Positions 6,005-29,740 of a DNA stretch of 64,000 nt are shown here, piece by piece. Position numbers and translations under genes: made by a program. This stretch comes from Deltaproteobacteria bacterium (GTDB lineage Bacteria; Myxococcota; XYA12-FULL-58-9; JAFGEK01): NCBI GenBank assembly GCA_016931625.1, contig JAFGEK010000079.1, positions 258-64,257 of the forward strand. Reading direction: 5' to 3'. Each line of letters begins with the position of its first letter. Within the stretch, counting starts at the first letter, position 1. The notes beneath the pieces are model-generated. The model did no database searches. It was not told the origin of the DNA and was given only the letters and a program-made list of their open reading frames with translations.

Positions 6005-6254
6005 CGGTAATAATTTAAAAACAACGCGTTATAGGATGATTAAATAATTCTCGCGTAACTTCTTAATGAGTGCTTGCGAAGCATGGGTGTCATACCGAGT
6101 GCATTGAGAGATCTTACAATGAACATTAAAATAAAGAATCTTATCTGCGCTCTTAAATAACAAGTCTGCTTGCGTTTGTGCCACGATTTATTGAGAAGTT
6201 ACATACTCGCCTAGCTAGCATTTTATGGTTTTGCTCTGCAACATTAGAGTTATG

Positions 6255-6488
6255 CATTAGTTTAGTAATAATCGTCTTGCAAACCCTAAATTATTAGGCC
6301 AATAGTGGCAAAAGCAATGAGCAAAAAAGCACCTATAATATTAGATACGGCTAGGTTAGAGTTGCTAAAGCCCACTGCGCAGCAAAAACTGGCCGCCATT
6401 ATTGAGTTATATGCTGCCTACCCATTGGTTGAATATCTGATGTTGTTTGGCAGTTATGCGCGTGGTGACTTTGTTATTGATGAAAAAA
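6255..6488. repeat. roughly 233 bp direct repeat, copy 2 of 2 (promoter plus 5' end of the intact nucleotidyltransferase gene)
   Basis: See the 4595-4826 entry. Confidence 0.85.
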
Positions 6489-9240: not shown

Positions 9241-9332
9241 AAATTAGCTATCAAAGTAGACAATTAGGGATAAACTTCCCAAGCCGTAGCATTACCAAGT
9301 TGACCTTGGTAATTATCGCCGAAGCAGTAGGC
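9241..9332. repeat. 92 bp direct repeat, copy 2 of 2 (native 3' end of the RCC1 lipoprotein gene)
   Basis: See the 4497-4588 entry. Confidence 0.85.
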
Positions 9333-12300: not shown

Positions 12301-13085
12301 GATTGAGAGTCAGTAATAGTAGTTACAATATTCCAACGATATTCTGGTGGTTGTGGATCATAATTGCCATTGTTGTCTTTGGCGCGTACACGAAAAACAT
12401 GCTCACCGTAACTTAAACTTGAGTATGAAAATGATCCAGGATTTATATTAGAACATACACTATATCCAGAATTATCAAGTTCGCATTCGAAATTAGCTAT
12501 TCCATAGTTACTACTAGCAGAGAAATAAAAATTTATATCTTTTTGAGTGGTCTGGGCAGTATCAGGATATGCGCTGGTAATAGTAGTAGATGGATATTCA
12601 AATCCAGAACTACTACCACTAGTATCAATTTGCACTTGCCAAGTATAAGATGCAGGATTATTATCTACATTACCAGAATTATCTCGTGCACGAACTTGAA
12701 AAGTATGAGAACCAGTCGATAGATCATTATATTGTATAGAAGCTTGACCACTGTTAGGTACGCCGCAAGGCGAAAAAGAGGCATCATCAAGACTGCAATC
12801 AAAACCAATCACACTATCATTATCTGTGCCGGTATATTTAAATTCAACTGATGTACCACTTGGGTTAGTTGGGGAAGAGGTTATTTGTGTATCTGGTGCA
12901 AGGGTGTCATTGCTAACCATGCTAGAATCATTAGGTACACAGATGTTATTGTTACAGTGAAACTCTTTAGCGCAATCGTCATCAGAATTGCATTTAAAAG
13001 TTTCTTTGTAAATATCCGGTACTTGTACAGTGCAACCGGTTAATAGCCAAATTAAAATAAAACAAGTGGTAAGATAGTGTCGCAT
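9264..13085 (-). CDS. giant secreted lipoprotein: N-terminal tandem roughly 95 aa beta-sandwich-type repeats followed by a long array of RCC1-like repeats
   Basis: Start set at MRHYLTTCFILIWLLTGC (lipobox LTGC, GAGGGAG Shine-Dalgarno upstream). Five to six repeats of the pattern F(D/E)C.LD...F..C....HTF.VRA.D..GN.D. Then more than 15 CWG.N..GQLG RCC1-type repeats. Confidence 0.85.
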   Translation of the reverse strand: MRHYLTTCFILIWLLTGCTVQVPDIYKETFKCNSDDDCAKEFHCNNNICVPNDSSMVSNDTLAPDTQITSSPTNPSGTSVEFKYTGTDNDSVIGFDCSLDDASFSPCGVPNSGQASIQYNDLSTGSHTFQVRARDNSGNVDNNPASYTWQVQIDTSGSSSGFEYPSTTITSAYPDTAQTTQKDINFYFSASSNYGIANFECELDNSGYSVCSNINPGSFSYSSLSYGEHVFRVRAKDNNGNYDPQPPEYRWNIVTTITDSQSPETYLNSTPASSSTNTYAYFSFSGSDNIQVTGFDCRLDSEPFAPCGDGSSNSIDYYSLQPGTHYFAVRAIDSSNNVDNSPSTFTWYVASADTTPPITYINSSPSSLTNDSYANFTFSCNETNCTYECRLDYGAYFDCSGGSISQYVDEGSHTFEVWAFDSSNNRDDYGATYYWDVDTVQPTLSLTFYPSAPTTPDSRTSFNVDLDCSDYNGCTITYKFDSENVTTATNYPENVSRYGLTETSHTLTVWATDSAGNTTEDTRTWTVSMVWQFVDSGPSAQHNCAIASDQSLWCFGANKNGQVAPDLGDERIGWVTRIHSETADGVDNWLQATAGGGHTCGLRYANGGAYQDLWCWGANSDGQLGLGYTGSIPTEPMQVADYSYNFVKVKAGTRHTCALTSNKTLYCWGNNSYGQLGLGNTSDYESNFTNIVSGGYQWQDFALGDDFTCGIQNDYSLWCWGKNDYGQLGIGNNQYKSQPTLVDNTMQYRNVVVGQKHACALDTGDKLYCWGDNSWLQVGPSSSLYPLYLSDNWSGMIFAGANHTCAIRNNNLECWGGNYNGQLGVGHTYSQGPSAVLNGATTAALGAVHTCAINSYGLYCWGNRNEGTVGNGIAATLAPTDKVLNTSYGYIELTSLSTGGKHACGRDLYGKAWCWGDDRFGQLGNEWPTPATEFIDDIAPRQEAVGLFSGSNAINKVTAGAKHSCFIINGGELYCSGDNSIGQLGTGTYNSRAVPEREYYYSSDWIAVGAGSEHTCGIRSISGSNSVYCWGQNNDGQLGNNQSDNFYNTPQIMVQNGTSFDDWTQLAVGDQHSCAIRHDYTYGYNELYCWGKNANGQIGIDSNSPTKILMPTNTWSGQTQWLTASAGGNHTCGITGSAFPGSLRCWGSNSLGQLGNGTFTDVYSPVSSTSLGNNWIWVAAGLNHTCGIQYASAGKGSLWCWGANHSGQLGAGYQFYQSATPVQVGAKTDWVAVAAGDNFTCGIRANGAVYEAYCFGDNYQGQLGNATAWEVYP

Positions 13086-13230
13086 TGCTCCCTCACAGCT
13101 AGTAACAATAAGGTATAACGGCTCTATTTTGAAAAACATGTAGTGCGATTTTAAAAAGGTTAATTCGAGGTAGTAAAAAATAGTAATAATGTAGTATAAA
13201 CGCAGATACTTATATTAGTTAGGCATAAGC

Positions 13231-14755: not shown

Positions 14756-15001
14756 ATGCAATGGATAAATGCGTCTGAATTTAAAGCAAAGTGTTTAGCA
14801 ATGCTCGATGAAGTGGCAAAGAGTACTGATGGTATAACTATTCTTAAAAGAGGACGTCCTATTGCTAAGTTAATACCTTATGTTTCGAGCGATGAAAAAT
14901 ATCCACAGAATTCATTAAAAGGCAGTGTTGTGATTAAAGATGATGTTATAAAGCCAGTATTGTCTGATTCAGTTTGGGAGGTAGATAAGCATAATTTATG
15001 A
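14756..15001 (+). CDS. type II antitoxin, Phd/YefM-like
   Basis: Small acidic protein ...KAKCLAMLDEVAKSTDGITILKRGRPIAKLIP... Its stop overlaps the start of the downstream PIN toxin gene by 4 bp (ATGA). Confidence 0.75.
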   Translation: MQWINASEFKAKCLAMLDEVAKSTDGITILKRGRPIAKLIPYVSSDEKYPQNSLKGSVVIKDDVIKPVLSDSVWEVDKHNL

Positions 15002-15393
15002 AGATTATTTTAGACACACATATTATTTTATGGTGGTTTGAAGATACTAATAGACTATCAAAAAAGCAGAAAAAAACCATTGAAAATGCTGATCAACAAA
15101 ATCCACTGTTGATTTCAGATATATCGTTATGGGAAATAGCCACTTTATATGAATTAGGCAGAATAAAACTTAAACTGCCATTACGAGATTGGCTTATGCA
15201 AGCTTTTGCGCCACCACTAGTCAGGTTATGTGGTATTACTGCCGCAATTGCTGCAACGGTTGCTTCACTACCAGAGAGTTTTAATCGAGATCCTGCCGAT
15301 AGAATTATAACAGCTACCGCGCTGGTTCATGGTGCAACATTAGTTACTAATGACGAAAGAATAATAAGATCAAAAATTGTATCAATACTTTAA
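14998..15393 (+). CDS. vapC: PIN-domain ribonuclease toxin VapC
   Basis: MKIILDTHIILWW..., SLWEI, DPADRII and TNDERI supply the four acidic PIN residues. Translationally coupled to the antitoxin gene. Confidence 0.85.
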   Translation: MKIILDTHIILWWFEDTNRLSKKQKKTIENADQQNPLLISDISLWEIATLYELGRIKLKLPLRDWLMQAFAPPLVRLCGITAAIAATVASLPESFNRDPADRIITATALVHGATLVTNDERIIRSKIVSIL

Positions 15394-16385: not shown

Positions 16386-17690
16386 TTACTGCCATCTTAG
16401 CGGTTTATTTAGTAGCATCTCACTAAAAGCATCTATGCGTGTACGGACTTGTGAAGGATTAAAACTATGAGAGTCAATGCAACAAGCGTCAAGAGTTAAT
16501 ACTGGTATTTGTTCGCGTAAGAATAATTGCTGTAAAAGCGGATATTGCATAGCATAAACTCCACAATGAGGCATAGCTAGCATTACCACGCCATCAATAC
16601 GATGCTCTTCGGCTTGCTCTAATAAAAGTTTAAAGCGTTGTTGGGGTAAAATCGATTCACGGGAATTAAGTAGGTGTTTGGCTAAATCATCATAGGGGTC
16701 ATATAAATCACAACCTTTAAAGTTAAGTTCTGATATATCTTCCCATACAAAACGAATCAGGCCATCACGCTCGATATATTCAACTATATCATTGGGATAG
16801 TATGGCATTAAAAACATCCACATAAGCCGCCGCTGTGGTTGTTGTTTAACTTGATCATCATTTTGTAAACGTTCTTGGTAACTTTGCAGCATATGTTGGG
16901 CAAAGGCAGTAAATTCCGGCTTACCATAGTAGGGTGAAACTCCAATGGTAAGTGATTGAAAGACACTTGGCGGATCAAGCAATGGGTAGCGACTGCGCAA
17001 ATGCAGTGCAGCTTTAAATGCGGTATAGGCATTATGGGCGTATGCTAAACTATTGTGTAAGTTTGCAGAACTAAGGGTTTCACCAGTTTGCTTTTCAATT
17101 AGGTGAGTCAACTCATATAGTTGTGATGCCACATATTTAATGGCATTAATATTATCACCGGCATTATAGGGCACGTTAATTAAATAATGTGGCGCTTGAT
17201 AATGATGAGCTGCAAAACTATATACATTGGATATACCTTCACAACCTTTAGCCGTGTTAATAATAAAATCTGGCGAAGCACAAATATTTAAGTATTGACT
17301 GGCAGGTATCGTGCGGACAAAATTGCATACTGATCGTGGTATGCCGATTTTGTCAGCAGCAATAAGCAGACATTGCTCGGCGCCCTGAGCTGCAAATAAT
17401 GAACCGATAGCTTCAACCGGAAAAAAGACAAGGCTGCTAAAGGCATTAAGTAATTCAGGGGGGACGGTAATATTGCGCCAGACTACAAAAGCATCTGGGG
17501 TATAAGCGCGACGCAATTCAGAGGCAATTAATGATAAAGGTGATGAAGTAGCTGCGGTCGGGTTAAGCGAGAGATCAGCGGCAATTTTGTTGGCCAAAGT
17601 TTTTTTAGGTATTTTATGTCGACGTAATTCGGTAAATAGCCTCGCTATTTGTTGACTACGTTCATGATGTTGTAGCTTAATTAAACTCAT
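16386..17690 (-). CDS. 2-hydroxyacyl-CoA dehydratase-family subunit (HgdB/BcrB/BadE-like)
   Basis: Size and Cys-containing blocks (e.g. MPHCGVYA, LDACCIDSH) are typical of the dehydratase family that depends on an ATPase activase (a CoA-substrate-specific enzyme activase). Confidence 0.6.
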   Translation of the reverse strand: MSLIKLQHHERSQQIARLFTELRRHKIPKKTLANKIAADLSLNPTAATSSPLSLIASELRRAYTPDAFVVWRNITVPPELLNAFSSLVFFPVEAIGSLFAAQGAEQCLLIAADKIGIPRSVCNFVRTIPASQYLNICASPDFIINTAKGCEGISNVYSFAAHHYQAPHYLINVPYNAGDNINAIKYVASQLYELTHLIEKQTGETLSSANLHNSLAYAHNAYTAFKAALHLRSRYPLLDPPSVFQSLTIGVSPYYGKPEFTAFAQHMLQSYQERLQNDDQVKQQPQRRLMWMFLMPYYPNDIVEYIERDGLIRFVWEDISELNFKGCDLYDPYDDLAKHLLNSRESILPQQRFKLLLEQAEEHRIDGVVMLAMPHCGVYAMQYPLLQQLFLREQIPVLTLDACCIDSHSFNPSQVRTRIDAFSEMLLNKPLRWQ

Positions 17691-17730
17691 TATATTATCA
17701 CAACCTTTAGATAATTTTTTAATAATAGAC

Positions 17731-19710
17731 CTAGCTATTTTTTATTGAATTCAAACGCTCAAGCCATGCATCACAGCGTGTTTGCAGTTGTCCGTCAATA
17801 GTTAAATTACCTGAGAGTTCAAGTTCTAGAGTCGGTAGCCCGAGTTTTTCAAATTCTTGCGAAATAAAATGCATATTTGTATAAGCCACCGTACAGAATT
17901 TTGCATTGACTACCACTATCCCATCTGCTTGAGCATGTAATACTTGACCTATAATATTGCGTAAAAATTTATGCTTGTCGATTAATCGCGGGCAGTTAAT
18001 ATGAGTTAGGGTATAGTCTGCTAAAGCAATAAAAGGGTCTTTACATTTAACATTAATATAACCTTGCCATGGTCGCATTGCCGAGCAATGATCAGTTACG
18101 ACAAATTCAGCGCTCGTAGCAAATGTTTGCTGCAGCGTTTCGTTATTAATACAACACCCTAAAATTGCGAGTCGCAATTTTGTTGAGACAATATTTTTAT
18201 TACTATGCTTAGCTTTTAGCTGTTGAAGATAACCTTGCAATTGTAAAGAGATCGATGAGGGTGGCATGGTTAATGCCATAGTATATAGTTCAGCCATAGC
18301 AGCTTCATTTATGGTTAAAGCGCCAGATGTACGAAATAACATAAGTTGTTGCCATAAGAGTCTAGTTTCATTGCTAGCATTAATAGCTTGCCATAATTTA
18401 TTAAGAGAAAACGATATATTAAAATATGCACAGAGTTGATCAACAATTGCACGATAGCTTTCAGCTAAATAGTGGCAGTCGTTAACCTGGTTTTTTAACG
18501 GCATTGCACTTAACACCGTGAAAATTTGGGGTTGTTGCAATGCAATAGCATCATAAACACGGCGTTTGGCATCACATGAGTCAACTGCGATAACACCGAG
18601 TAATTGGCGGTTAGCATGTAGATTTTCAATTTGACTTGCTTGTGCAGATGCAATTGAGCAAATTTGTGGATGTAGATTAAATAGTGAAAGTTGTTGGTGT
18701 TGTGTTTGAATAGCGATAATGCGATTTGGTAGGTTAAGAGCGTATAAAATTTCACGAGGAAAACAACTGCAAAGTACGGCAATAAAACTATCCTTAGCAA
18801 TAGCCTTATTAGTATTTGGAGAAGCAATAACTTGATTTGAACATGTTGGCTGAGACTTTATTTGATTATTACATTTAAGTGAATAGTTATTATTAAGTAA
18901 ATTATCACGTGCAATAAGTGCAGCACCAAGAGCCCCAACTATTTGGGGATTATCACATACATTTAGTGTATATCCTAACAAGTGTGTAAGTTGTTTTACT
19001 AGGGCCTGATTAAGTGCAACACCGCCACTCATAACATATAAAGGAGAATGATCCAGCCGTTGTATTAATGCTAAAGTACGATTAGCAATAGCATAAAATA
19101 CTGCCGCCATTATATCACCAGGGTTAATATTTTTTGCAATAAGACTTACAACTTCAGACTCGGCAAAAACCGCGCAGGTAGAATTTATATTTACTTTATT
19201 AATACTATTAGCTGCGGCGAAGTTTAATTGCGTGAGATCATCATTAAGCGTACGACAAATCGTTTCAATAAAGCGACCAGTACCAGCGGCACACCGATCA
19301 TTCATAACAAAATTTTGAACATTACCATTATTAGCAAGACAAATAACTTTGCTATCTTGTCCACCAATATCAATTACTGTTTTAGCTTCGGGAAAAAAAT
19401 GCAAGACCCCACGAGCATGACAAGAAATTTCAGAAATTGTATTTTTCACCCAACTAACACTATGACGTCCAAATCCAGTAGCTACGCTAGCAATAATTTG
19501 CTGAGGTTTAATATGAAATAACCCTAATATTGCTTGATAGGCCATATCAGCAGTATTTTCAGCACTAGGACTACTTGAAAAAATATGACTAAAGGAAATA
19601 TGACCAGTATCAGTATCAACAGCAACAATTTCTGTTGAGATCGATCCAATATCAATGCCCAAACAATAGGTTGCAGTAGGTTTTGGCAGCATTGTAAAAC
19701 TATTAATCAT
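17731..19710 (-). CDS. fusion of a BadF/BadG/BcrA/BcrD-type ATPase (dehydratase activase) with a second 2-hydroxyacyl-CoA dehydratase-like subunit
   Basis: The N-terminal roughly 270 aa have an ASKHA fold (CLGIDIGSISTEIVAV ... VMSGGVALNQ). The C-terminal roughly 390 aa form a Cys-rich dehydratase-like domain (AILGCCINNE, VTDHCSAMRP). Confidence 0.6.
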   Translation of the reverse strand: MINSFTMLPKPTATYCLGIDIGSISTEIVAVDTDTGHISFSHIFSSSPSAENTADMAYQAILGLFHIKPQQIIASVATGFGRHSVSWVKNTISEISCHARGVLHFFPEAKTVIDIGGQDSKVICLANNGNVQNFVMNDRCAAGTGRFIETICRTLNDDLTQLNFAAANSINKVNINSTCAVFAESEVVSLIAKNINPGDIMAAVFYAIANRTLALIQRLDHSPLYVMSGGVALNQALVKQLTHLLGYTLNVCDNPQIVGALGAALIARDNLLNNNYSLKCNNQIKSQPTCSNQVIASPNTNKAIAKDSFIAVLCSCFPREILYALNLPNRIIAIQTQHQQLSLFNLHPQICSIASAQASQIENLHANRQLLGVIAVDSCDAKRRVYDAIALQQPQIFTVLSAMPLKNQVNDCHYLAESYRAIVDQLCAYFNISFSLNKLWQAINASNETRLLWQQLMLFRTSGALTINEAAMAELYTMALTMPPSSISLQLQGYLQQLKAKHSNKNIVSTKLRLAILGCCINNETLQQTFATSAEFVVTDHCSAMRPWQGYINVKCKDPFIALADYTLTHINCPRLIDKHKFLRNIIGQVLHAQADGIVVVNAKFCTVAYTNMHFISQEFEKLGLPTLELELSGNLTIDGQLQTRCDAWLERLNSIKNS

Positions 19711-19756: not shown

Positions 19757-21028
19757 TTAAAAATTTGAAATAACAAGAGCTGCCGCGTTACCTGCATGTG
19801 AAGTAGAGGTAATAAGTGCATGCTTAGTATTTACTGACACCTTCTTAGTTTGCGCGTAATTTAAAGGAGTTTCTGGATTAACCAGGTTGGCAATTGCTGG
19901 TACCGAACTATTTCGTATTGACCAAGCAGCTACTAATGTTTGCAGTAAACCACCAGTTTCTAAGGTTTCACCTATACTACCCTTAATCGCAGTAATTATC
20001 GGACATATATTATCATTATTAGTATATAAACATGATATTACATCAGCTTCACGACGGTCAATTTCGATATCTCCAGATGCAGATGCAGAAATGACACCGA
20101 TATCATTAACATCAATACCAGCCTGCTTAATTGCATGTGTGCATGAATTAAGTAAGGTTTCGGTTGCTTCATCATTATCAGCCGCCATTGCTGATGATAA
20201 TCCGCTTAAATTTGTGAGAGGAGTGATATCACGTTGTTGAGCATATGATAATGGTTCAAGTACTACAGCAGCGGCAGCTTCTCCTAAAGCAATATTTTTG
20301 CGATTAGTATCAAATGGTCTAGGTAAATAATTAGTATCAAATTTGCTGGCTCTTGACATGCTAAATAGTAACTCATCACAAAAAGAAAAACTTGTAACAA
20401 CTACCAAGGCACGTGCGCGTTTTTGTTGTAATAATAGTGTCGCAAGATTAAGTGCCTCAAGTGATGAAGTGTTTCCGCTTGATATAGTGAAACATAAGGC
20501 CTTGAGACCAAGAGATAAAGCGATTTGACTACTGGCAGCGCTTGGAATGCTAAATGGAACCAGGGCAGGATTAGATTTATGCAATCCTTCAACTACCACA
20601 CTGCGGTCATATTTTATTAAAGTTGGAAGATGAGCAAAACTAAACGCTCCTATTAACCCAATTTGATTACAATCAAAGTAAGTATCTGAAACGTCATCGA
20701 AGGTTTGATGATTTTCGTTATTTTGCTTATTGATATCGCAATATATTTTAGCATCATCAAGAGCAAGTTTTGCGGCGCAAAGCCCTAATTGAGTAGTGCG
20801 GTTAAGTAATCTCAATCCCTTTACAGGTGAATATTTTAAGGGGTCAAAATTTGGAATGCTAGCAATATTGATTTTAGGTATATCTTTAGCAGATTGCCAG
20901 GTTTGCAAAATGCCATTATATCCAGTGCATAATGAAGTAGCTAAAGTATCTAACGAATCACCAAGAGGCGTGATTACCCCAACCCCGGATATGGCGATAG
21001 GATTGCCAATTTCACCAAGTTGATTCAT
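19757..21028 (-). CDS. ketosynthase-like protein lacking the Cys-His-His triad (KS-beta / chain-length-factor-like partner)
   Basis: Thiolase/KS fold. The active-site position reads ALCFTISSGNTSS with Asn in place of Cys. The two His positions read ISASASG and IKGSIGE. The start of the upstream KS gene overlaps its end by 4 bp. Confidence 0.7.
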   Translation of the reverse strand: MNQLGEIGNPIAISGVGVITPLGDSLDTLATSLCTGYNGILQTWQSAKDIPKINIASIPNFDPLKYSPVKGLRLLNRTTQLGLCAAKLALDDAKIYCDINKQNNENHQTFDDVSDTYFDCNQIGLIGAFSFAHLPTLIKYDRSVVVEGLHKSNPALVPFSIPSAASSQIALSLGLKALCFTISSGNTSSLEALNLATLLLQQKRARALVVVTSFSFCDELLFSMSRASKFDTNYLPRPFDTNRKNIALGEAAAAVVLEPLSYAQQRDITPLTNLSGLSSAMAADNDEATETLLNSCTHAIKQAGIDVNDIGVISASASGDIEIDRREADVISCLYTNNDNICPIITAIKGSIGETLETGGLLQTLVAAWSIRNSSVPAIANLVNPETPLNYAQTKKVSVNTKHALITSTSHAGNAAALVISNF

Positions 21029-22260
21029 GTTTCACAACGCTTTATGATCAGGCAAACATTAAAGCCGCCAAAGCCAGCAGATAGATTTAAACAGTTATTT
21101 AATGGCAAATTGCGACCATGAATAGGCACGTAATCAAGGTCACACTTAGGATCATGTGTCGTAAGATTTGCCGTAGGTGGTACGGCTTGGTGTTGCAGCG
21201 CTAAAGTGCAAATAATAGCGGCGATAGCGCTGGCGGCGCCATTGCAATGCCCAAGCATAGATTTCAAAGAACTAATGCTTAGCTTATAGGCATGTTCACC
21301 AAATATATTCTTTATAGCTGAGGTTTCCGCATTATCATTATGAATAGTACCGGTACCATGAGCGCTTATATATTCAATTGCAGAAAAAGATGTATTACTT
21401 TGTTGTAATGCTTTACGCATAGCTCTTGTAAAACCATCACCTTGTGGTTCTGGGGCAGTAACATGGTAGGCGTCATTACTCATGCCATATCCTGCGATTT
21501 CAGCAATTATATTAGCGCCGCGTGTTCGCGCATGTTCATAATCTTCAAGAACTAAAATACCTGCCCCTTCACCAAAACATACACCATCACGATTTAGATC
21601 AAAGGGTCGACAAACAGATTTGGCTAAAATTCCCAGACGCGAGAAACCGCTATAAACTGTGCGGGTAAGTGTATCAGCGCCGCCAGCCACCATAAGTTCT
21701 GCTCTGCCGCTAGCAATCATATCGTAGGCAAGAGCAATTGCGGCATTACCCGAACTGCATGCAGCTGTGCATAATATTGATGGACCGGTGAGGGAAAAAT
21801 AACGAGAAATATTCGTTGTTATATGATGGTTATCAGCACGTTGATAAAACGTTGCATCAACTGCGTCATAGCCAATTTGAGTAAAATGATCATTAAGCTC
21901 ACCAACTGATTCTTCTTCGCCCATGGTAGTACCGATAATTACTCCAATAGGTGCGCGTCTTTTGGTGTCATTAATTAGTTGGGCTTCAGTAAGTGCAAGT
22001 TTTGTCGCTATTAAGGCTAGTTTAGTGCAGCGACCATAGGCAGCAATATGATCGATTACTTGTTTATCGTTATCAGTTGATAAATCGCATAGTGGTGTGG
22101 ATACTTCACCGCCCCAAAGATCAGCCATATTTGTACAAGAAAAACGCTGCAATGGAGCGATAAAGCAAGTACCGTCGAATAGTGATTGCCATACACTGTA
22201 TAGCTCACTTCCTGCAGCAGTTAATAAACCTCTGCCGGTTATTGCGACTTTACGTAACAT
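21025..22260 (-). CDS. beta-ketoacyl-ACP synthase (FabF/KS-alpha-type, catalytically intact)
   Basis: Cys motif ILCTAACSSG; His motifs ISAHGTGT and MLGHCNGAASA. Confidence 0.85.
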   Translation of the reverse strand: MLRKVAITGRGLLTAAGSELYSVWQSLFDGTCFIAPLQRFSCTNMADLWGGEVSTPLCDLSTDNDKQVIDHIAAYGRCTKLALIATKLALTEAQLINDTKRRAPIGVIIGTTMGEEESVGELNDHFTQIGYDAVDATFYQRADNHHITTNISRYFSLTGPSILCTAACSSGNAAIALAYDMIASGRAELMVAGGADTLTRTVYSGFSRLGILAKSVCRPFDLNRDGVCFGEGAGILVLEDYEHARTRGANIIAEIAGYGMSNDAYHVTAPEPQGDGFTRAMRKALQQSNTSFSAIEYISAHGTGTIHNDNAETSAIKNIFGEHAYKLSISSLKSMLGHCNGAASAIAAIICTLALQHQAVPPTANLTTHDPKCDLDYVPIHGRNLPLNNCLNLSAGFGGFNVCLIIKRCET

Positions 22261-22281: not shown

Positions 22282-23559
22282 CTAGCTTTTTATGTAGCGC
22301 TTGCGCATGGCTTCACCATGATTTGTTAAAAACCAATTCCAGCAATCAAGCCACCCTTGACGTAATTGTTCAACTGAAAAATGCTTTGGTCGAAAAACAA
22401 TATTAGCACCGTTATATTTTTGCCATTGGTGATGCAAAAGACGCCCTGATTTTGTAAAACGAGCAAACAAGCGACTGCCCGGAAAAGGTGTTGCAATAAA
22501 AAATACCGCGTCATTAATAGATAATCTTGTTAGATAGGCAAGAACTGTATCAAAGATCGATGGTTGATCGTAATCAAAACCTAACATTGTCGAAGCGCAA
22601 ATATGAAAACCTAAATCTTGAATATATTTAATCAAATCATGATTATTCCAATATTTTTGAGCTAATTCACTTGGTATGTTAGTAGCAAAACTATTGAGGG
22701 TTAAATATAGACTATCAACATTACATGAATGTAGATGCTTTAAAAATGAAGGGTCGACTTGTTTGATCGAGCTTAACTCATCAGGAGCTAAAGCTAGCAT
22801 AAAACGTTTTTGTGTAGTGCTCAGTGCCGCGAATAATTCGCGTAACATAGGCAAAGCGTTGTCACCAGTGGCGCCTTGAGTCAAATTATCTGGAATATAT
22901 AAAGTGTTACTGGCCACGTTAGTAAGGTCTTGTAGTATTTTATCTGCTGTCAGCTGACGAATTTTACCATCAACCAAGGGTTCAACATGGGCAATGGGAC
23001 ACCATTGACATTGCAGGCGACAAGAGCGCGGTGTCAACATAATTTCCATGTCATGCGGGTAGGTCTGTCGATTCACTAACGAACGTTGGGGTAGGGGAAT
23101 TTCATTTATTGTTGGCGGACGCTCGCTAATATAAAATTGCTTGGTGGTGCCATGTAGCAAATCATTTATAAAAAGTGGCCAGGTAAGCTCAGCCTCACCA
23201 ATAAAAAGTATATCCGCATGCGCTCGTGCTTCTTGAGGCATTATAGTTACATGTTTGCCTCCCAGAATCACGAGTTTGTTTCTTTGGCGAAAATTATCAG
23301 CAATGTCATATGCTCGTGAAGCTTGTGGAGTAAAAAGGCTTATTGCCACAAGATTTGCATTAGTTTCATATGGAATGCTCATAAATTGGTCATCGATAAA
23401 TTCTAGTTCTATTTCTTTGGGTGTCAATGCTGCTAAAGTTGGTAAAGCTAACCCAGGCCCAACAGGATCAAGCCACGGGTAACCATCAGTGAGATGGCTA
23501 AGTTCAGAATGACCTTCTATGAGTTTTGCATAGCTTGGATATATTAATAATATTTTCAT
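22282..23559 (-). CDS. B12-binding-domain radical SAM enzyme
   Basis: N-terminal MKILLIYPSY... Rossmann-like B12 domain. The radical SAM cluster motif is CRLQCQWC (CxxxCxxC). Confidence 0.7.
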   Translation of the reverse strand: MKILLIYPSYAKLIEGHSELSHLTDGYPWLDPVGPGLALPTLAALTPKEIELEFIDDQFMSIPYETNANLVAISLFTPQASRAYDIADNFRQRNKLVILGGKHVTIMPQEARAHADILFIGEAELTWPLFINDLLHGTTKQFYISERPPTINEIPLPQRSLVNRQTYPHDMEIMLTPRSCRLQCQWCPIAHVEPLVDGKIRQLTADKILQDLTNVASNTLYIPDNLTQGATGDNALPMLRELFAALSTTQKRFMLALAPDELSSIKQVDPSFLKHLHSCNVDSLYLTLNSFATNIPSELAQKYWNNHDLIKYIQDLGFHICASTMLGFDYDQPSIFDTVLAYLTRLSINDAVFFIATPFPGSRLFARFTKSGRLLHHQWQKYNGANIVFRPKHFSVEQLRQGWLDCWNWFLTNHGEAMRKRYIKS

Positions 23560-23579: not shown

Positions 23580-23804
23580 TTAGGCGTTGGCATTTTTGGC
23601 AACTCGCAATAGGTCATTAAAGTTATGCACTTCGGCGTATTGTTTTTCAGGAATGGTTATTCCTAAAGCTTGTTCAATTTCAAAAATTAATTCAAGCGCC
23701 CCTAGAGAATCGATACCTAAGACCTCGCGAAAATCTGCATCATTAGCGAAATCCTCATTAGTTTCAGCTATCTGTGCAACTATCTGTCTTAGTTGTTGTT
23801 CCAA
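23580..23804 (-). CDS. acyl carrier protein
   Basis: 74 aa, acidic. Phosphopantetheine-attachment motif LGIDSLGALEL. Confidence 0.8.
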   Translation of the reverse strand: MEQQLRQIVAQIAETNEDFANDADFREVLGIDSLGALELIFEIEQALGITIPEKQYAEVHNFNDLLRVAKNANA

Positions 23805-23858: not shown

Positions 23859-24137
23859 TTATGCTATAGAGATGAATTTATTTTGTTGTTTTTGCATTTG
23901 TTGTACTAATGCGGTGATAGTATTAACGGTACGAAAATTATCAGTATTTATATCCACAATATTGACATTGACTGCGAATCTCTCATCAATAAAAGCAATT
24001 AGAGCAAATGTTGAAAACGAATCAAGGATACCGTTTTGTTGAAGATCAGTATCAATATCGAAGCCGCGTTCGTCATTGTTAAGAAAATTATAAATAATAT
24101 ACTGGCTAATCTCTTTGGCAATTAATGAAGCACTCAT
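23859..24137 (-). CDS. second acyl carrier protein-like protein
   Basis: 92 aa with GILDSFSTFALIAFIDE (DSx attachment-site context). Its start overlaps the stop of the upstream ligase gene. Confidence 0.6.
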   Translation of the reverse strand: MSASLIAKEISQYIIYNFLNNDERGFDIDTDLQQNGILDSFSTFALIAFIDERFAVNVNIVDINTDNFRTVNTITALVQQMQKQQNKFISIA

Positions 24138-25702
24138 GAAGATCGTCCCAAGCGATTTTTATCGCGAGCAGGAATTAGTAAATCAGGATTCATCCCGGCA
24201 ACTGCTGATCCAATACTAAGGCGATCAGCTTTGCCATTATCGGTACGTGGTAATTTTCTAACTAATCTAACATCAGATGGGATCATATAGCGAGGTAGTA
24301 AACCAGCACAATGCCGTTTAAGATCTAAAACCGATAGTGTTTGTTCATTTGGTACCGCAACCGCAATTAATTTATTATGTGCAACTAAAGCTACAGCTTC
24401 ATGGACTTTGGGATGTTGATTTAACACAGCTTCGACTTCACCAAGCTCAATGCGATTACCGCGAATTTTAACCATATGATCAAGTCGACCATGATACCAT
24501 AACTCACCATTAGCGCCACGTGATACTAAATCACCAGTTGGGTAAGGACGTTGAGGTTTTATGGTGTTACCGCCATTAAAATAACCAAGCATTACCGTCG
24601 GTCCATCAACTAATAATTCACCGATTTCTCCATCAGCAACAGGATGCCCACTCGTAGAAACTATACTAATTGTGTTGCTACAACTCGGCCAACCAATAGG
24701 TATTGCTGCGGAGTTTTCTGAAGGAGGTTTTTTTATTTCATAGTATAAACACACATTAGTTTCAGTAGGACCAAAGAAATTAAAAAAGCGAGCTTGGCGA
24801 ACTGCGGTCATAAGCCGACGTAAGTGTTTTAGGGGAAACACTTCACCAGCGAAACAAATAACTCGTAATGAAGCAGCACCATTGCGCGTTAATTCACCTG
24901 AATCTAACATAAGCATAAGCGCTGAAGGCACTGAATACCAGATGGTAATATTATAGTGTCGAATAAATTCTGACATGTGATGGCCAGAGTTGCTAATAGC
25001 CTCATCAACAATAAATATCGTAGCACCGCGACTAAATGATGCCCAAATATCAAAAACAGATAAATCAAAATGAAATGGCGCATGATTAGCTACATGATCA
25101 TGATTATTAAGGTCTACTAACGTAGCAGCCCACTCAGTAAATGCTAAGACATTTCTGTGTGATATCATTACTCCCTTAGGAGTGCCAGTTGAGCCAGAAG
25201 TATAAAGAATAAAAGCTAAATCATCAGAACAATTTGTTGATACAGAGGGAATATTATTGCTATGTTGTTTAATTTGGTTAAGGTTTGTTACTTTGCTAGT
25301 TGAATGATCGTGATTATCGATAAGTAAAAAACGATTTATTTTGTTTTCTTGTTTAGCTTCTTGCCATACTTTTAGCAGAGATGAAGTTGTGATTAAGTGA
25401 TGCAAATTACAGTCATTAGCGATAAGAATAGCGCGAGATATTGGTGAGGCAGGATCAATAGGTACAAAAGCTGCACCTGCACGCAATACTCCTAACATTG
25501 CTGCCACAACTATTGGTGAGCGAGGTGAATGAATTCCTACGCGATCACCAATACCAACTCCTTGGTTAATTAGACTGTGGGCAAACTGATTTGCCAGTGT
25601 ATCTAAGTCACCATAGGTAAGTTTTGATTTCTGACCGACAAGCGCTAAGTGCTGACTTTCGTGCTCGGCCCATATAGTTACAAGCTGATCTATGCGCATC
25701 AT
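24134..25702 (-). CDS. AMP-dependent synthetase/ligase (fatty-acyl-AMP / acyl-ACP ligase-type adenylating enzyme)
   Basis: Adenylation core motif ILYTSGSTGTPKGV and GEL..GP..M.GY block. Position next to the ACP genes suggests it loads an ACP. Confidence 0.8.
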   Translation of the reverse strand: MMRIDQLVTIWAEHESQHLALVGQKSKLTYGDLDTLANQFAHSLINQGVGIGDRVGIHSPRSPIVVAAMLGVLRAGAAFVPIDPASPISRAILIANDCNLHHLITTSSLLKVWQEAKQENKINRFLLIDNHDHSTSKVTNLNQIKQHSNNIPSVSTNCSDDLAFILYTSGSTGTPKGVMISHRNVLAFTEWAATLVDLNNHDHVANHAPFHFDLSVFDIWASFSRGATIFIVDEAISNSGHHMSEFIRHYNITIWYSVPSALMLMLDSGELTRNGAASLRVICFAGEVFPLKHLRRLMTAVRQARFFNFFGPTETNVCLYYEIKKPPSENSAAIPIGWPSCSNTISIVSTSGHPVADGEIGELLVDGPTVMLGYFNGGNTIKPQRPYPTGDLVSRGANGELWYHGRLDHMVKIRGNRIELGEVEAVLNQHPKVHEAVALVAHNKLIAVAVPNEQTLSVLDLKRHCAGLLPRYMIPSDVRLVRKLPRTDNGKADRLSIGSAVAGMNPDLLIPARDKNRLGRSS

Positions 25703-26847
25703 TAAAGTCCTAATGATTTAGCGATGAGTATGCGCTGCATTTCAGAGCTACCGGAAAATACTCGCGCAGGAAGGGCATCGCGTAAGAGAGAATCGACACC
25801 AGTAGCAGTAATCATGGCAAAGCCACCAAAAATTTGTACCGCATCGCTGCCACTTTGTACTGCGGCTTCAGAAATCCAAAGTTTTGCTAAAGAAATAGCT
25901 TCTTCACAATGTTTGCCATCACGATGCAACTCGCCAGCGCGATAAAGCAGCGCACGACTAGTTTCAAGACGAAGTTTCATATCAACAATACGATTTTGTA
26001 TCGACTGATTTTCACCTATAACACGACCAAATTGTTTGCGCGTACGTGCATAGTCAATACATTGTTCAAGCGTACGTTCCATATAACCTACGTAGAAGGC
26101 GAATAGGCAACCACGTTCCCAAATCATTGACTCATGAAACAGAGCAGCGCCACAACCTTCAGCACCCAAACGGGTTTTGGCGCTTACACGACAATCGTTT
26201 AAATATACTGTACCCCATGGTGAAGTACGTAAGCCTGTTTTATTGAGCTCAGCTTGCACCTGCAAGCCTGCTGTTTCACGTGGCAATAAAAAGGCGCTAA
26301 TGCCCAGAAAACCACGAGCAGGATCGGTAGTAGCATAGATTAAAAAATAGTCAGCTATAGGTGCATTGGTGACAAAACACTTGCTACCATTGATAATATA
26401 TTGGTCACCATCGCGTACCGCGAGAGTTTTCAAGGCGAATACGTCAGAACCAGCTTCTGGTTCAGTAATAGCGTTAGCGCAAATATGGGTACCGTTAATG
26501 AACGATGGCAAATAGCGAGAAGTCATTTCATTTTGGGCACGCCAAATGGGTACTGACGCTGCAAACATATGTGCACACAGAGAAAAAATTAAGCCACTAT
26601 CTTCGCAGTGTTTGCCTAACGCCTCAATGATTACCATGGTATCTAGGGCATTAAGATTGCTGCCCCCAAATTGCTCAGGAAACGGTAGACCTGTAAGTCC
26701 AAAGCTAGAGGCTTGCGTCCAAAGCTCTCTATTAAAAGCGGCAGCAGCTTCACGTTCACGAGCACCTGGTGACAAACGTGTTTGTGCAAACTGGCTGACC
26801 ATTTGGACCCGCTCTTGTTGAGCTTGGTCCAAGTTGTAATAAGGCAT
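25702..26847 (-). CDS. acyl-CoA dehydrogenase-family flavoprotein
   Basis: ACAD N-, middle- and C-domain arrangement. Sequence ...QIFGGFAMITATGVDSLLRDA... Its start abuts the ligase gene. Confidence 0.8.
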   Translation of the reverse strand: MPYYNLDQAQQERVQMVSQFAQTRLSPGAREREAAAAFNRELWTQASSFGLTGLPFPEQFGGSNLNALDTMVIIEALGKHCEDSGLIFSLCAHMFAASVPIWRAQNEMTSRYLPSFINGTHICANAITEPEAGSDVFALKTLAVRDGDQYIINGSKCFVTNAPIADYFLIYATTDPARGFLGISAFLLPRETAGLQVQAELNKTGLRTSPWGTVYLNDCRVSAKTRLGAEGCGAALFHESMIWERGCLFAFYVGYMERTLEQCIDYARTRKQFGRVIGENQSIQNRIVDMKLRLETSRALLYRAGELHRDGKHCEEAISLAKLWISEAAVQSGSDAVQIFGGFAMITATGVDSLLRDALPARVFSGSSEMQRILIAKSLGL

Positions 26848-27012: not shown

Positions 27013-28281
27013 TTATCGACATAAAGCGCGATCAAGCTCAGTAATCAGATCATTTACGTTTTCTAAGCCTACTGACATACGGATAAAATCATCACCAATA
27101 CCAGCATTTTCTCTTTCATTAATATTTAAGTTGCGATGAGTTGTGCTTGCTGGATGAATAACTAGTGTTTTGGTGTCACCGATGTTGGTGCTATGACAAA
27201 GTAACTCTATTTGATCAATAAAGTGACGGCCAGCTTCATATCCACCAGCTACACCAAAACCTATCATAGCACCAAAGTATTGACGTAAATACTTTTTAGC
27301 TTGAGTGTGTGATGGATGGTCTTCCAATTCTGGATAACAAACCCATTTTACCTGCGCATGTGATTTTAAAAATTTTGCAAGTTGCGAAGCGTTTTCACAA
27401 TGGCGTTGCATACGAATATGCAATGTTTCCATGCCGCGCAGCATGAGCCAAGCAGTATGTGGTGACATGCAAGCACCCATGTTCATCAGCACTTTGCCTC
27501 GTAAACGAGTAGTGAATGCTAAAGGACCAAACTGTTCGGCATAAGCACGACCAGTTGGGGTAGATTCAAACATCAAGGGATAGCGTTCAGGTTGCCAAAT
27601 AAAGCGGCCGGCATCGACTAAGATGCCACCAATAATCATACCATGACCATCAAGATATTTAGTGCATGAATGAATTACAAAGTCGGCACCATAATTAATA
27701 GGATTAGTAAGATATGGTGTCGCAATGGTATTATCAACGACATAGGGGACATTTATTTCATGAGCAATTGCACTTAAAGTTTCGTGGATGGGGACTAACA
27801 AACTAGGATTGGCTAAATTTTCAACAAAAATAAGCCGAGTTTTCTCAGTGATTTGAGTACGTAGCGAATTTTCATCAAGCGGATTAAAAAAGCGTGTTTT
27901 TATGCCAAGAGTGCTTAAGGTATCACGTAGTAGCCCAATACTACCACCATATAAGCAGGAGGCCGCGACGATCTCATCGTTAGGTCGCAACATATTAAGA
28001 ATTAGACCTGTTACTGCCGCCATGCCTGAAGCAAAGGCAACCCCAGCAACGCCGCCTTCTAACATTGCTACACGTATTTCAGCTTCGGCAACGGTTGGAT
28101 TACCTAAACGGCTATAGATGAAACCCGACTCTTTAAAATTAAAAAGTTCTGCAGCATGATCACTACTATCGTAAGTAAAAGCCGCAGTTTGATATAAAGG
28201 AATTGCACGAGCATGTTGATGGGCTTGCGGTTCATAGGTGCCATGCACCAACTCGGTCTCAGGAGCATATCGTTTTGACAT
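27013..28281 (-). CDS. metY: PLP-dependent O-acetylhomoserine aminocarboxypropyltransferase / sulfhydrylase (Cys/Met-metabolism family)
   Basis: Trans-sulfuration-family layout with the Lys-bearing motif region ...VIHSCTKYLDGHG... Confidence 0.75.
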   Translation of the reverse strand: MSKRYAPETELVHGTYEPQAHQHARAIPLYQTAAFTYDSSDHAAELFNFKESGFIYSRLGNPTVAEAEIRVAMLEGGVAGVAFASGMAAVTGLILNMLRPNDEIVAASCLYGGSIGLLRDTLSTLGIKTRFFNPLDENSLRTQITEKTRLIFVENLANPSLLVPIHETLSAIAHEINVPYVVDNTIATPYLTNPINYGADFVIHSCTKYLDGHGMIIGGILVDAGRFIWQPERYPLMFESTPTGRAYAEQFGPLAFTTRLRGKVLMNMGACMSPHTAWLMLRGMETLHIRMQRHCENASQLAKFLKSHAQVKWVCYPELEDHPSHTQAKKYLRQYFGAMIGFGVAGGYEAGRHFIDQIELLCHSTNIGDTKTLVIHPASTTHRNLNINERENAGIGDDFIRMSVGLENVNDLITELDRALCR

Positions 28282-29633: not shown

Positions 29634-29740
29634 GGAGATAATTCCAATAATTCTTGATTTAAAAAATTAGCAACTAACAGGTGACAGGATAAGTCTTTCA
29701 TGTTTTGATAAAGCTTAAATAGCAGAATGTGAGGGTAGTT

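What the first reader, a model, noticed from the sequence alone, without database searches (positions are those of the whole stretch)
19757..22260. KS heterodimer: one active ketosynthase plus a partner with all three catalytic residues replaced
The 21025-22260 protein has TAACSSG, SAHGTGT and MLGHCNGA, so it is an intact KS. The 19757-21028 protein has the same fold, but its active-site position reads TISSGNTSS (Asn in place of Cys), and the His positions read ISASASG and IKGSIGE. The two genes overlap by 4 bp. This mirrors KS-alpha/CLF pairs of type II PKS or APE-type KS/CLF pairs, yet the rest of the locus lacks the usual partners. An Asn at the Cys position, rather than the canonical CLF Gln, is unusual.
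Basis: seen in the sequence. Interest (0 to 1): 0.55.

Follow-up and report, generated by a model that had tools for sequence, protein, structure and literature searches.

The report
Ketosynthase plus dead partner, pyrrole-primed
Two overlapping genes encode an active chain-extending ketosynthase and a catalytically dead look-alike that almost certainly pair up, as in known ketosynthase/chain-length-factor dimers, to extend a proline-derived pyrrole starter; it is a solid but fairly ordinary new member of a known enzyme class.

Summary
On the minus strand, 21025-22260 encodes a FabF-like ketosynthase (KS) with intact Cys-His-Lys-His. 19757-21028 encodes a same-fold protein with Asn/Ser/Lys/Glu at those positions. 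The two genes overlap by ATGA.

The KS/CLF-type heterodimer reading is well supported:
- The best solved relatives of both proteins are the two chains of the anammox amxFabF2/amxFabFmut heterodimer (PDB 9S5H/9S5I).
- Natural KS–dead-KS fusions exist in the same order.
- The pair recurs and co-diversifies in 25 other loci.
- The dead gene is under purifying selection.

First, the locus does have partners. Directly upstream lie a prolyl-AMP ligase, a prolyl carrier protein, a PigA-like prolyl-carrier dehydrogenase and a small TTG-start ACP. This order, PigA–A–PCP–ACP–KS–dead KS, is conserved in Myxococcota MAGs and metagenomes. Second, Asn at the Cys position is not special. That position is hypervariable in this family (orthologues have Gly/Ala), whereas Lys and Glu/Asp are conserved.

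The most likely function is a split, PigJ-like pyrrolyl-β-ketoacyl-ACP synthase.

Only this window has a B12-radical SAM gene inserted in the cassette and an activase-fused HGD-type gene pair downstream. That part is unexplained.

The parts
21025..22260 (-). Active FabF-like ketosynthase (411 aa). It has Cys168, His301, Lys333, His338 and the gate Phe in GFGG.
   Evidence: Pfam KS N and C domains score 135 and 126 bits. TIGR03150 fabF scores 369 bits, below its equivalog cut-off of 494. The best solved relative is 9s5h_B (amxFabF2) at 336 bits. It is 50-55% identical to the KS of 25 syntenic loci.
19757..21028 (-). Catalytically dead KS-fold partner (423 aa), CLF-like. It has Asn186/Ser/Lys/Glu at the Cys/His/Lys/His positions. 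A window-specific low-complexity loop of about 20 aa lies at roughly residues 95-117.
   Evidence: Searches support the register. The AF2 model has pLDDT 92 and the FabF fold. The family profile A1 scores 516 bits on 9s5h_C (amxFabFmut) against 390 bits on the best FabF. dN/dS among orthologues is 0.13-0.31.
21025..21028 (-). ATGA stop/start overlap, indicating translational coupling of the KS and its partner.
   Evidence: Sequence read. The same 4-bp overlap occurs in L005, where the KS ends at 9980 and the partner starts at 9977.
23580..23804 (-). Acyl carrier protein (74 aa, TTG start, DSL motif). It is the presumed malonyl/extender carrier.
   Evidence: PF00550 scores 50.6 bits. PDB ACP hits include amxACP-type chains. 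It is conserved at this position in the syntenic loci.
23859..24137 (-). Prolyl/pyrrolyl carrier protein (92 aa, DSF motif).
   Evidence: The best PDB hits are stand-alone peptidyl carrier proteins, including the prolyl carriers PigG and PltL. It is conserved in the syntenic loci.
24134..25702 (-). Stand-alone adenylation enzyme, a predicted L-proline--[prolyl carrier protein] ligase.
   Evidence: TIGR01733 scores 356 bits, above its cut-off. The best PDB hit is 6o6e_B, an L-proline--[L-prolyl-carrier protein] ligase, at 379 bits; PigI 7thn_B also matches.
25702..26847 (-). PigA-like L-prolyl-carrier-protein dehydrogenase (FAD, acyl-CoA dehydrogenase fold).
   Evidence: The NCBIfam PigA equivalog scores 559.8 bits, above its cut-off of 500. 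The best PDB hits are PigA 5zw0 (371 bits) and AnaB 4irn (338 bits).
22282..23559 (-). B12-binding radical SAM enzyme (CxxxCxxC at 179-186), inserted between the ACP and the KS. This insertion is specific to the window.
   Evidence: Pfam B12-binding scores 37.7 bits; Radical_SAM scores 24.5 bits, below its cut-off. It is absent from all 25 syntenic loci. Its closest homologue, P0293 (43% identity), also sits next to an active KS.
17731..19710 (-). Fusion of an acyl-CoA-dehydratase-type ATPase activase with an HGD-D (2-hydroxyacyl-CoA dehydratase / benzoyl-CoA reductase / double-cubane) domain. It lies 46 bp downstream of the dead KS. Whether it belongs to the cluster is uncertain.
   Evidence: Pfam BcrAD_BadFG scores 173 bits and HGD-D 152 bits. 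Most of the named full-length homologues are from anammox Brocadiales, where the gene forms a stand-alone two-gene unit. No terminator-like site lies in the 46-bp gap.
16386..17690 (-). Second HGD-D family subunit, the partner of the fusion protein above.
   Evidence: Pfam HGD-D scores 162.5 bits. The same pairing is seen in Brocadia (L084) and in L087.

Best explanation
The two genes encode an obligate heterodimer of the KS/chain-length-factor type.

The upstream protein (21025-22260) is the only catalytic subunit. The downstream protein (19757-21028) is a dead paralogue. It is inferred to stabilise the KS, to supply its helix-loop-helix segment to the wall of the KS substrate tunnel (thereby limiting chain length) and to form part of the carrier-protein docking surface.

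The inferred pathway in this locus is:
1. The adenylation enzyme loads L-proline on the 92-aa carrier protein.
2. The PigA-like flavoenzyme oxidises it to pyrrole-2-carboxyl-S-PCP.
3. KS Cys168 takes over the pyrrolyl group and condenses it with malonyl-ACP on the 74-aa ACP, giving 3-oxo-3-(pyrrol-2-yl)propanoyl-ACP. One or a few elongations are possible.

Functionally this is a split, discrete-subunit counterpart of PigJ/RedX, the pyrrolyl-β-ketoacyl-ACP synthase.

Shown here: sequence and fold, the catalytic-residue pattern, synteny, co-diversification, purifying selection and family membership. Inferred: physical dimerisation, the identity of the starter and product, and the number of elongations.
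For: - Intact versus dead catalytic residues, confirmed in three alignments.
- The best solved relatives of the KS and the partner are chains B and C of 9S5H/9S5I. The family profile scores 516 bits on chain C against 390 bits on FabF.
- Those chains are the Brocadia fulgida amxFabF2/amxFabFmut heterodimer. Its subunits co-purify and are active only together, and residues of the dead subunit (Phe135, Val139) tune substrate length (bioRxiv 10.64898/2026.05.19.726425).
- In 22 of 23 natural didomain relatives, the N-terminal half is C-H-K-H and the C-terminal half is dead. This is the same order as here.
- The cassette PigA–A–PCP–ACP–KS–dead KS recurs in 11 genome or contig loci and 14 metagenome loci.
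- In every such locus where the sites could be read, the KS keeps C-H-K-H and the partner has Gly/Ala at the Cys position, Gly/Ser (Cys in one) at the first His, Lys, and Glu/Asp.
- The KS and partner subtrees are congruent.
- dN/dS is 0.13-0.31 for the partner and 0.12-0.19 for the KS.
- The starter cassette is identified by the NCBIfam PigA equivalog above its cut-off and by PDB best hits to PltF/PigI, PigG/PltL and PigA.
- The PigI/PigG/PigA/PigJ/PigH logic is taken from PMC6667630.
- ATGA overlap.
Against: - No direct evidence of a physical complex for these proteins.
- A crude charge count over the helix-loop-helix and partner helix did not reproduce the charge asymmetry that the amxFabF paper reports, even for the amx proteins, so that test is uninformative.
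- The PigA-like enzyme also resembles AnaB (338 bits), which stops at a 2-electron oxidation. The starter could therefore be a pyrroline rather than a pyrrole.
- The window has no KR, DH, TE, AT or PPTase, so the fate of the β-keto product is unknown.
- The KS scores far below the PigJ equivalog cut-off (107 versus 900 bits). The link to PigJ is by analogy only.
Confidence: 0.8

Rival explanations
1. The dead partner is a chain-initiation factor in the classical CLF sense. Asn186 would play the role of the CLF/KSQ glutamine, and the subunit would decarboxylate malonyl-ACP to prime the KS with acetyl.
For: Asn is an amide side chain, like Gln. The amxFabF heterodimer does decarboxylate malonyl-ACP.
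Against: Both His residues needed for decarboxylation are replaced by Ser and Glu. In the amx system the decarboxylation is assigned to the subunit with the intact triad. Asn is not conserved: orthologues have Gly or Ala, and 17 residue types occur at this position across 94 dead partners. A dedicated starter cassette makes acetyl priming unnecessary.
Confidence: 0.04
2. The partner has acquired a new catalytic or templating role, for example a cyclisation factor like AmcG or a transferase that moves the pyrrolyl group between PCP and ACP. It would use the conserved Lys and Glu/Asp.
For: Lys335 is retained in 87 of 94 dead partners and Glu/Asp replaces His340 in 85 of 94, which indicates constraint on the old active site. 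AmcG shows that KS partners can be proposed to do chemistry beyond chain-length control (PMC10698177).
Against: The Lys/Glu pair can equally be a structural salt bridge filling the dead pocket. In the amx crystal structure the dead subunit's tunnel has no access to the catalytic triad. No nucleophile is conserved at the elbow. The protein is full length and FabF-like, unlike the truncated AmcG.
Confidence: 0.1
3. The pair serves a lipid or ladderane-like pathway rather than a pyrrole pathway. Under this reading the KS pair, the B12-radical SAM enzyme and the HGD-type genes form an anammox-like toolkit, and the prolyl cassette is merely adjacent.
For: The closest solved relatives are from the putative ladderane Cluster I, which also encodes a B12-rSAM enzyme and an ACP. 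Most of the named full-length homologues of the activase-HGD fusion are anammox proteins. The rSAM has a weak hit to TIGR04072.
Against: The KS and dead KS are far closer to the myxobacterial cassette orthologues (50-55% and 35-42% identity) than to the amx proteins (42% and 28%), and they branch with the former. In 25 loci the pair is always fused to the PigA–A–PCP–ACP cassette, without rSAM or HGD genes. TIGR04072 scores 31 bits against a cut-off of 360. The rSAM homologues are not anammox-specific. In Brocadia the HGD pair is not near any KS gene.
Confidence: 0.05

Closest known systems
amxFabF2/amxFabFmut heterodimer (amxFabFhet) of the putative ladderane Cluster I of anammox bacteria (Brocadia fulgida; PDB 9S5H/9S5I; bioRxiv 10.64898/2026.05.19.726425)
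   Same: It is the closest solved relative of both proteins (336 and 119 bits). It is likewise a FabF-like KS with an intact triad plus a full-length dead paralogue of the same family. The dead subunit follows the same pattern: a variable residue at Cys (Val), Asn at the first His, Lys retained and Glu at the second His. An ACP and a B12-radical SAM gene are in the same cluster.
   Different: Identity is only 42% (KS) and 28% (partner). The gene order is reversed, since amxFabFmut lies upstream of amxFabF2. The amx pair has no prolyl starter cassette. It comes from a different organism group and a different presumed product (a lipid).
PigJ / RedX / TamF pyrrolyl-β-ketoacyl-ACP synthases of prodiginine and tambjamine MBC biosynthesis
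   Same: The predicted chemistry is the same: take pyrrole-2-carboxyl from a PigG-type carrier, loaded by PigI- and PigA-type enzymes, and condense it with malonyl-ACP (PMC6667630). The PigA, PigI and PigG counterparts are all present directly upstream.
   Different: PigJ is a single didomain protein. Both window proteins match only its C-terminal KS domain, and far below the equivalog cut-off (107 and 16 bits versus 900). The window has no PigH-type α-oxoamine synthase, so the downstream pathway differs.
Highly reducing type II PKS KS/CLF pairs (e.g. Iga11/Iga12 of ishigamide, PDB 6KXD) and aromatic type II KS/CLF (actinorhodin, PDB 1TQY)
   Same: They share the discrete KS plus dead partner architecture, a discrete ACP, adjacent genes, and a chain-length role for the partner. 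Iga11 and act KS-alpha are good sequence and structure matches (235 and 222 bits; TM 0.85).
   Different: There is no Gln at the Cys position. The window has no KR, DH, cyclase or aromatase. The family profile prefers amxFabFmut (516 bits) over act CLF (291 bits), and Iga12 is not among the top 60 hits.
AmcF/AmcG (KS/'cyclisation factor') of cispentacin biosynthesis
   Same: It is a KS heterodimer that performs a single C2 elongation of a starter loaded by a stand-alone adenylating enzyme (PMC10698177). The KS scores 250 bits on the AmcF model.
   Different: That score is below the AmcF cut-off of 325 bits. AmcG lacks some secondary-structure elements relative to a CLF and has no recognisable motifs, whereas the partner here is a full-length FabF fold.

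Membership tests
KS/CLF-type heterodimer (type II PKS/FAS-like, broad sense) | Two adjacent, co-oriented KS-fold genes, one with an intact Cys-His-His and the other lacking the catalytic Cys | tested here: met
   ATGA overlap
KS/CLF-type heterodimer (type II PKS/FAS-like, broad sense) | Discrete acyl carrier protein encoded in the same cluster | tested here: met
   ACP at 23580-23804, PF00550 50.6 bits
KS/CLF-type heterodimer (type II PKS/FAS-like, broad sense) | The two proteins form a physical heterodimer, and the KS is active only in the complex | not testable with these tools
   Indirect support only: a homologous crystallised heterodimer, natural fusions and congruent trees
Canonical aromatic type II PKS KS-alpha/KS-beta (CLF) | Conserved Gln at the Cys position of the CLF (chain-initiation function) | tested here: not met
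   Asn186 here; Gly/Ala in orthologues; Gln in only 6 of 94 family members
Canonical aromatic type II PKS KS-alpha/KS-beta (CLF) | Associated cyclase/aromatase and C-9 ketoreductase genes | tested here: not met
   None found in the Pfam scans of the window's ORFs of 150 aa or more and the smaller ORFs next to the cluster
Highly reducing type II PKS (Iga/APE-like) | KR and DH partners that iterate with the KS/CLF | tested here: not met
   The window has no KR or DH. Some orthologous loci have a FabG-like KR. No DH was found next to the cassette in the loci examined.
amxFabFmut-like dead-KS family | Full-length FabF fold with the pattern [variable]-[S/G/A/N]-Lys-[Glu/Asp] at Cys163/His303/Lys335/His340 | tested here: met
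   N-S-K-E here. In the family, Lys is retained in 87 of 94 and Glu/Asp occurs in 85 of 94. The family profile scores 516 bits on 9s5h_C. The NJ tree places the partner in the same clade.
Anammox ladderane Cluster I (KustE3603-3608 type) | amxACP, amxFabZ, a phytoene-desaturase homologue and the TIGR04072 B12-rSAM enzyme together with the FabF pair | tested here: not met
   The window has no FabZ or PDH homologue. TIGR04072 scores 31 bits against a cut-off of 360. Gene content as listed.
PigJ/RedX pyrrolyl-β-ketoacyl-ACP synthase (NCBIfam NF053555) | Didomain KS-KS protein scoring above the equivalog cut-off | tested here: not met
   107 bits (KS) and 15.7 bits (partner) against a cut-off of 900; the two are separate proteins
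Prolyl-to-pyrrolyl starter cassette (PigI/PigG/PigA; PltF/PltL/PltE) | Stand-alone prolyl-AMP ligase, small carrier protein and acyl-CoA-dehydrogenase-fold prolyl-carrier dehydrogenase | tested here: met
   PigA equivalog scores 559.8 bits, above its cut-off of 500. Best PDB hits are PltF/PigI, PigG/PltL-type PCPs and PigA. Substrate specificity itself was not tested.

The most novel reading that the evidence does not exclude
The window may carry a unique radical-chemistry variant of an uncharacterised, pyrrole-primed type II PKS-like cassette. In this reading the B12-radical SAM enzyme, inserted between the ACP and the KS, and the downstream activase-fused HGD / benzoyl-CoA-reductase-type pair act on the carrier-bound pyrrolyl or β-keto intermediate. 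Possible reactions are C-methylation, rearrangement, or ATP-driven reduction or dehydration. These enzymes would replace the KR or NRPS module found in the other 25 loci and would give a new class of anaerobe-derived pyrrole metabolite. A secondary novel reading is that the strictly conserved Lys/Glu pair of the dead subunit has a function of its own.
Probability: 0.2. Interest if true: 0.65.

Novelty: new member of a known kind. Interest (0 to 1): 0.4.

Why it matters
The result adds a clear, evolutionarily conserved example of a KS/dead-KS pair, found in at least 26 loci counting the window. It sits outside the classical aromatic and polyene type II PKSs.

It also shows that the just-described anammox amxFabF heterodimer belongs to a much wider family of dead-KS partners. 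That family has a recognisable signature: a variable residue at the Cys position, a retained Lys, and Glu/Asp at the second His.

The cassette PigA–A–PCP–ACP–KS–dead KS is a compact, apparently modular pyrrolyl-β-ketoacyl-ACP generator. It is coupled to different downstream enzymes in different genomes and could be useful for genome mining and for engineering pyrrole-containing products.

The system itself is mechanistically unsurprising.

Tried and rejected
- A literature search for the code 9S5H found nothing. The structure was identified instead through a ladderane/ketosynthase search and by matching residues Phe135, Thr138 and Val139 to chain C with an offset of one.
- The Foldseek PDB library (entries up to 8 April 2026) did not list 9S5H among its matches, so the fold search only confirmed a generic FabF fold.
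A 4-sequence alignment worked.
- Anammox link for the HGD pair: the Brocadia and other homologues are stand-alone two-gene units with no KS nearby. The link does not support a shared pathway.
- Anammox link for the rSAM enzyme: its homologues are phylogenetically scattered and TIGR04072 is far below its cut-off.
- Linear net-charge comparison of the helix-loop-helix and partner helix, as a proxy for the electrostatic asymmetry reported for amxFabFhet: uninformative, because it did not reproduce the published asymmetry even for the amx proteins.
- A fused-chain AlphaFold prediction of the dimer was considered and not run. All KS-family proteins dimerise in the same geometry, so it could not discriminate a heterodimer from a homodimer, and no interface score is returned.
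- The O-acetylhomoserine sulfhydrylase-like PLP gene (27013-28281) was considered as a PigH-like partner and rejected. It passes the housekeeping TIGR01326 cut-off, is separated by 165 bp, and is absent from all syntenic loci.
- Literature searches for a described pyrrolyl-primed discrete KS/CLF found none.
Full report
**Origin of the window.** The partner protein is 100% identical to 'MAG: hypothetical protein JW841_07090 [Deltaproteobacteria bacterium]' on a 75.5-kb contig. The window has about 40% G+C.

**Observation.** On the minus strand, 21025-22260 (411 aa) and 19757-21028 (423 aa) are intact ORFs. They overlap in the tetranucleotide ATGA. Both match the Pfam ketoacyl-synthase N- and C-terminal domains.
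- The upstream protein carries TAACSSG, SAHGTGT and KSMLGH, that is Cys168, His301, Lys333 and His338. It also has the GFGG gate motif.
- The downstream protein reads ISSGNTSS, ISASASG and IKGSIGE.
- A HMMER alignment with B. subtilis FabF, a MAFFT alignment with 105 relatives and one with 11 orthologous pairs all give the same register. Asn aligns with the catalytic Cys, Ser with the first His, Lys is retained and Glu aligns with the second His.
- The AlphaFold2 model of the partner is confident (pLDDT 92) and superposes on FabF structures with TM about 0.86.

The pair is the distal part of a tight minus-strand gene string. In order it contains:
- 25702-26847: an acyl-CoA-dehydrogenase-fold protein that passes the NCBIfam equivalog cut-off for PigA, the L-prolyl-carrier dehydrogenase (559.8 versus 500 bits). 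Its best solved relatives are PigA and AnaB.
- 24134-25702: a stand-alone adenylation enzyme. Its best solved relative is an L-proline--[prolyl-carrier-protein] ligase (6O6E chain B, 379 bits), and PigI also matches.
- 23859-24137: a 92-aa carrier protein that best matches stand-alone peptidyl carrier proteins, including the prolyl carriers PigG and PltL.
- 23580-23804: a 74-aa ACP with a TTG start and a DSL motif (PF00550).
- 22282-23559: a B12-binding radical SAM protein with CxxxCxxC.
- The KS, then the dead KS.
- After 46 bp, 17731-19710: an activase fused to an HGD-D domain.
- 16386-17690: a second HGD-D protein.

No terminator-like site lies in the 46-bp gap. Pfam scans of the window's other ORFs of 150 aa or more, and of the smaller ORFs next to the cluster, found no KR, DH, AT, TE, cyclase or PPTase. 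So the statement that the locus lacks the usual partners is only partly right. It has an ACP and a full starter-unit cassette, and it lacks reductive, cyclising and release enzymes.

**Family of the dead partner.** An exhaustive HMMER search followed by alignment shows that the protein belongs to a large family of dead KS paralogues.
- Among 94 such proteins the Cys position is hypervariable: A14, F13, E12, G9, S7, Q6, Y5, N4, T4, I4, M4, L4 and others.
- The first His is mostly Ser, Gly or Ala.
- The Lys is retained in 87 of 94.
- The second His is Glu or Asp in 85 of 94.

Asn is therefore one of many tolerated residues. The really conserved feature of the dead site is the Lys–Glu/Asp pair.

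A profile of 40 family members scores 516 bits on PDB chain 9s5h_C, against 390 bits on the best FabF and 291 bits on actinorhodin CLF. The active KS also has its best solved match in the same entry, chain B (336 bits).

Those chains can be assigned to the Brocadia fulgida amxFabF2/amxFabFmut heterodimer described in bioRxiv 10.64898/2026.05.19.726425. The paper's Phe135, Thr138 and Val139 of amxFabFmut coincide with F134, T137 and V138 of chain C, and 9S5I contains an ACP chain. That study shows four things. The two proteins co-purify. They are active (malonyl-ACP decarboxylation and acetoacetyl-ACP formation) only together. The dead subunit's own tunnel does not reach the catalytic triad. 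Residues of its helix-loop-helix tune the acyl-length preference. This is direct experimental precedent for the heterodimer reading within the same protein family.

**Independent comparative evidence.**
1. *Rosetta-stone fusions.* Of 23 didomain proteins of about 800 aa among the top hits, 22 have an N-terminal C-H-K-H half and a C-terminal dead half. This is the gene order seen in the window.
2. *Synteny.* A scan of one genome per GTDB species found ten MAG loci, from Polyangiaceae, Anaeromyxobacteraceae, Myxococcales and 'Deltaproteobacteria'. One further contig and 14 metagenome contigs were also found. All carry the same order PigA–A–PCP–ACP–KS–dead KS wherever the contig extends far enough. 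In all of them the KS keeps C-H-K-H. Where the sites could be read, the partner has Gly/Ala at the Cys position, Gly/Ser (Cys in one) at the first His, Lys, and Glu/Asp.
3. *Phylogeny.* In a neighbour-joining tree the window KS is sister to these KSs, with amxFabF2 next. The window partner is sister to their partners, inside a dead-KS clade that contains amxFabFmut. The internal branching of the two subtrees is congruent.
4. *Selection.* dN/dS between orthologues is 0.13-0.31 for the partner and 0.12-0.19 for the KS (dS is near saturation, so the values are approximate). The dead gene is maintained by selection and is not a pseudogene.

**Mechanism.** By analogy with the PigI/PigG/PigA/PigJ/PigH steps of prodigiosin biosynthesis (PMC6667630), the most likely sequence is as follows.
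1. Proline is adenylated and loaded on the PCP.
2. It is oxidised to pyrrole-2-carboxyl-S-PCP.
3. The pyrrolyl group is transferred to KS Cys168.
4. It is condensed with malonyl-ACP to give a pyrrolyl-β-ketoacyl-ACP.

The dead subunit is inferred to stabilise the KS, to line its tunnel and to help dock the carriers. Its residues Val157, Ser160 and Ile161 align with amxFabFmut Phe135, Thr138 and Val139. In the amx complex the ACP contacts both subunits.

Decarboxylative priming by the partner is unlikely because both His residues are absent and a dedicated starter exists. The pair is not a PigJ orthologue: it scores 107 and 16 bits against a cut-off of 900, and the proteins are separate. It works like PigJ but belongs to the amxFabF-like KS/dead-KS family.

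One uncertainty remains. The dehydrogenase is also similar to AnaB, so a pyrroline starter cannot be excluded.

**Downstream diversity.** In the related loci the cassette is followed by different genes:
- a FabG-like KR and a PPTase (L003, L005, L006, L012);
- a C-A-T-TE NRPS module (L010);
- hexapeptide-repeat transferases (L006).

Only the window has the B12-rSAM gene inserted between the ACP and the KS, and the HGD-type pair downstream. None of the 25 other loci has either.

The closest rSAM homologue (43% identity) again lies directly after an active KS. This is compatible with action on a carrier-bound acyl chain. Most of the named full-length homologues of the activase-HGD fusion are from anammox Brocadiales, but there it is a stand-alone two-gene unit. 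Whether it belongs to this pathway or is merely adjacent is open.

**Verdict.** It is a new member of a known kind, a KS/CLF-like heterodimer of the amxFabF-like family, embedded in an uncharacterised but conserved pyrrole-primed cassette. The 'unusual Asn' and the 'missing partners' do not hold up. The only really odd feature is the window-specific association with radical enzymes, and it lies outside the finding proper.

Noticed in passing
window 16386-19710 (-): This is a two-gene unit: an activase fused to an HGD-D domain, plus a second HGD-D subunit. Most of the named full-length homologues (30-33% identity) are from anammox Brocadiales, where the unit is widespread and stands alone (L084, L085). 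Its function is unknown. The best NCBIfam hit is the 'double-cubane-cluster anaerobic reductase' model, far below its cut-off.
   Followed up: partly
window 22282-23559 (-); L088 111-2554: The B12-binding radical SAM gene is inserted inside the otherwise conserved ACP–KS junction. Its closest homologue (P0293, 43% identity) also lies directly downstream of an active KS. That KS is followed by a reductase (NAD_binding_4), a GMC oxidoreductase and a nitroreductase, which suggests a recurrent KS–rSAM association.
   Followed up: partly
L003-L013, L090-L103: The cassette PigA–A–PCP–ACP–KS–dead KS is conserved in Myxococcota-type MAGs and peat or soil metagenomes. Its downstream partners vary: KR plus PPTase, a C-A-T-TE NRPS module, or hexapeptide transferases. 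No described product was found in the literature searched.
   Followed up: partly
   Followed up: yes
window 19757-21028 (-), residues about 95-117: The dead KS has a window-specific, Asn/Asp-rich insertion of about 20 residues (YCDINKQNNENHQTFDDVSDTYF). It is absent from all orthologues and is predicted with low confidence (pLDDT 58-68).
   Followed up: no
window 9264-13139 (-) and 29729-31402 (+): There is a 1291-aa protein with RCC1 repeats and Ig-like and Y_Y_Y domains. There is also a 557-aa protein with multiple Kazal-type protease-inhibitor domains. Both are eukaryote-like repeat families and unusual in bacteria.
   Followed up: no
window 14756-15393 (+); 4865-7552 (+); 43572-44567 (-): These regions hold a Phd/YefM–PIN toxin-antitoxin pair, two Fic-domain proteins and a nucleotidyltransferase/HEPN protein. 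They indicate defence or addiction modules around the cluster.
   Followed up: no
L001 10001-13897: A more distant dead-KS relative (P0004, 28% identity; Phe at the Cys position with a Cys at +1) sits in an APE-like arrangement of dead KS, KR, ACP, an ApeP/ApeI-like dehydratase and a KS. This shows the same partner family serving polyene-type clusters.
   Followed up: partly
(family alignment): In dead-KS partners the old active-site Lys (87 of 94) and a Glu/Asp at the second His position (85 of 94) are far more conserved than expected for a decayed site. The reason, a structural salt bridge or a function, is unknown.
   Followed up: no
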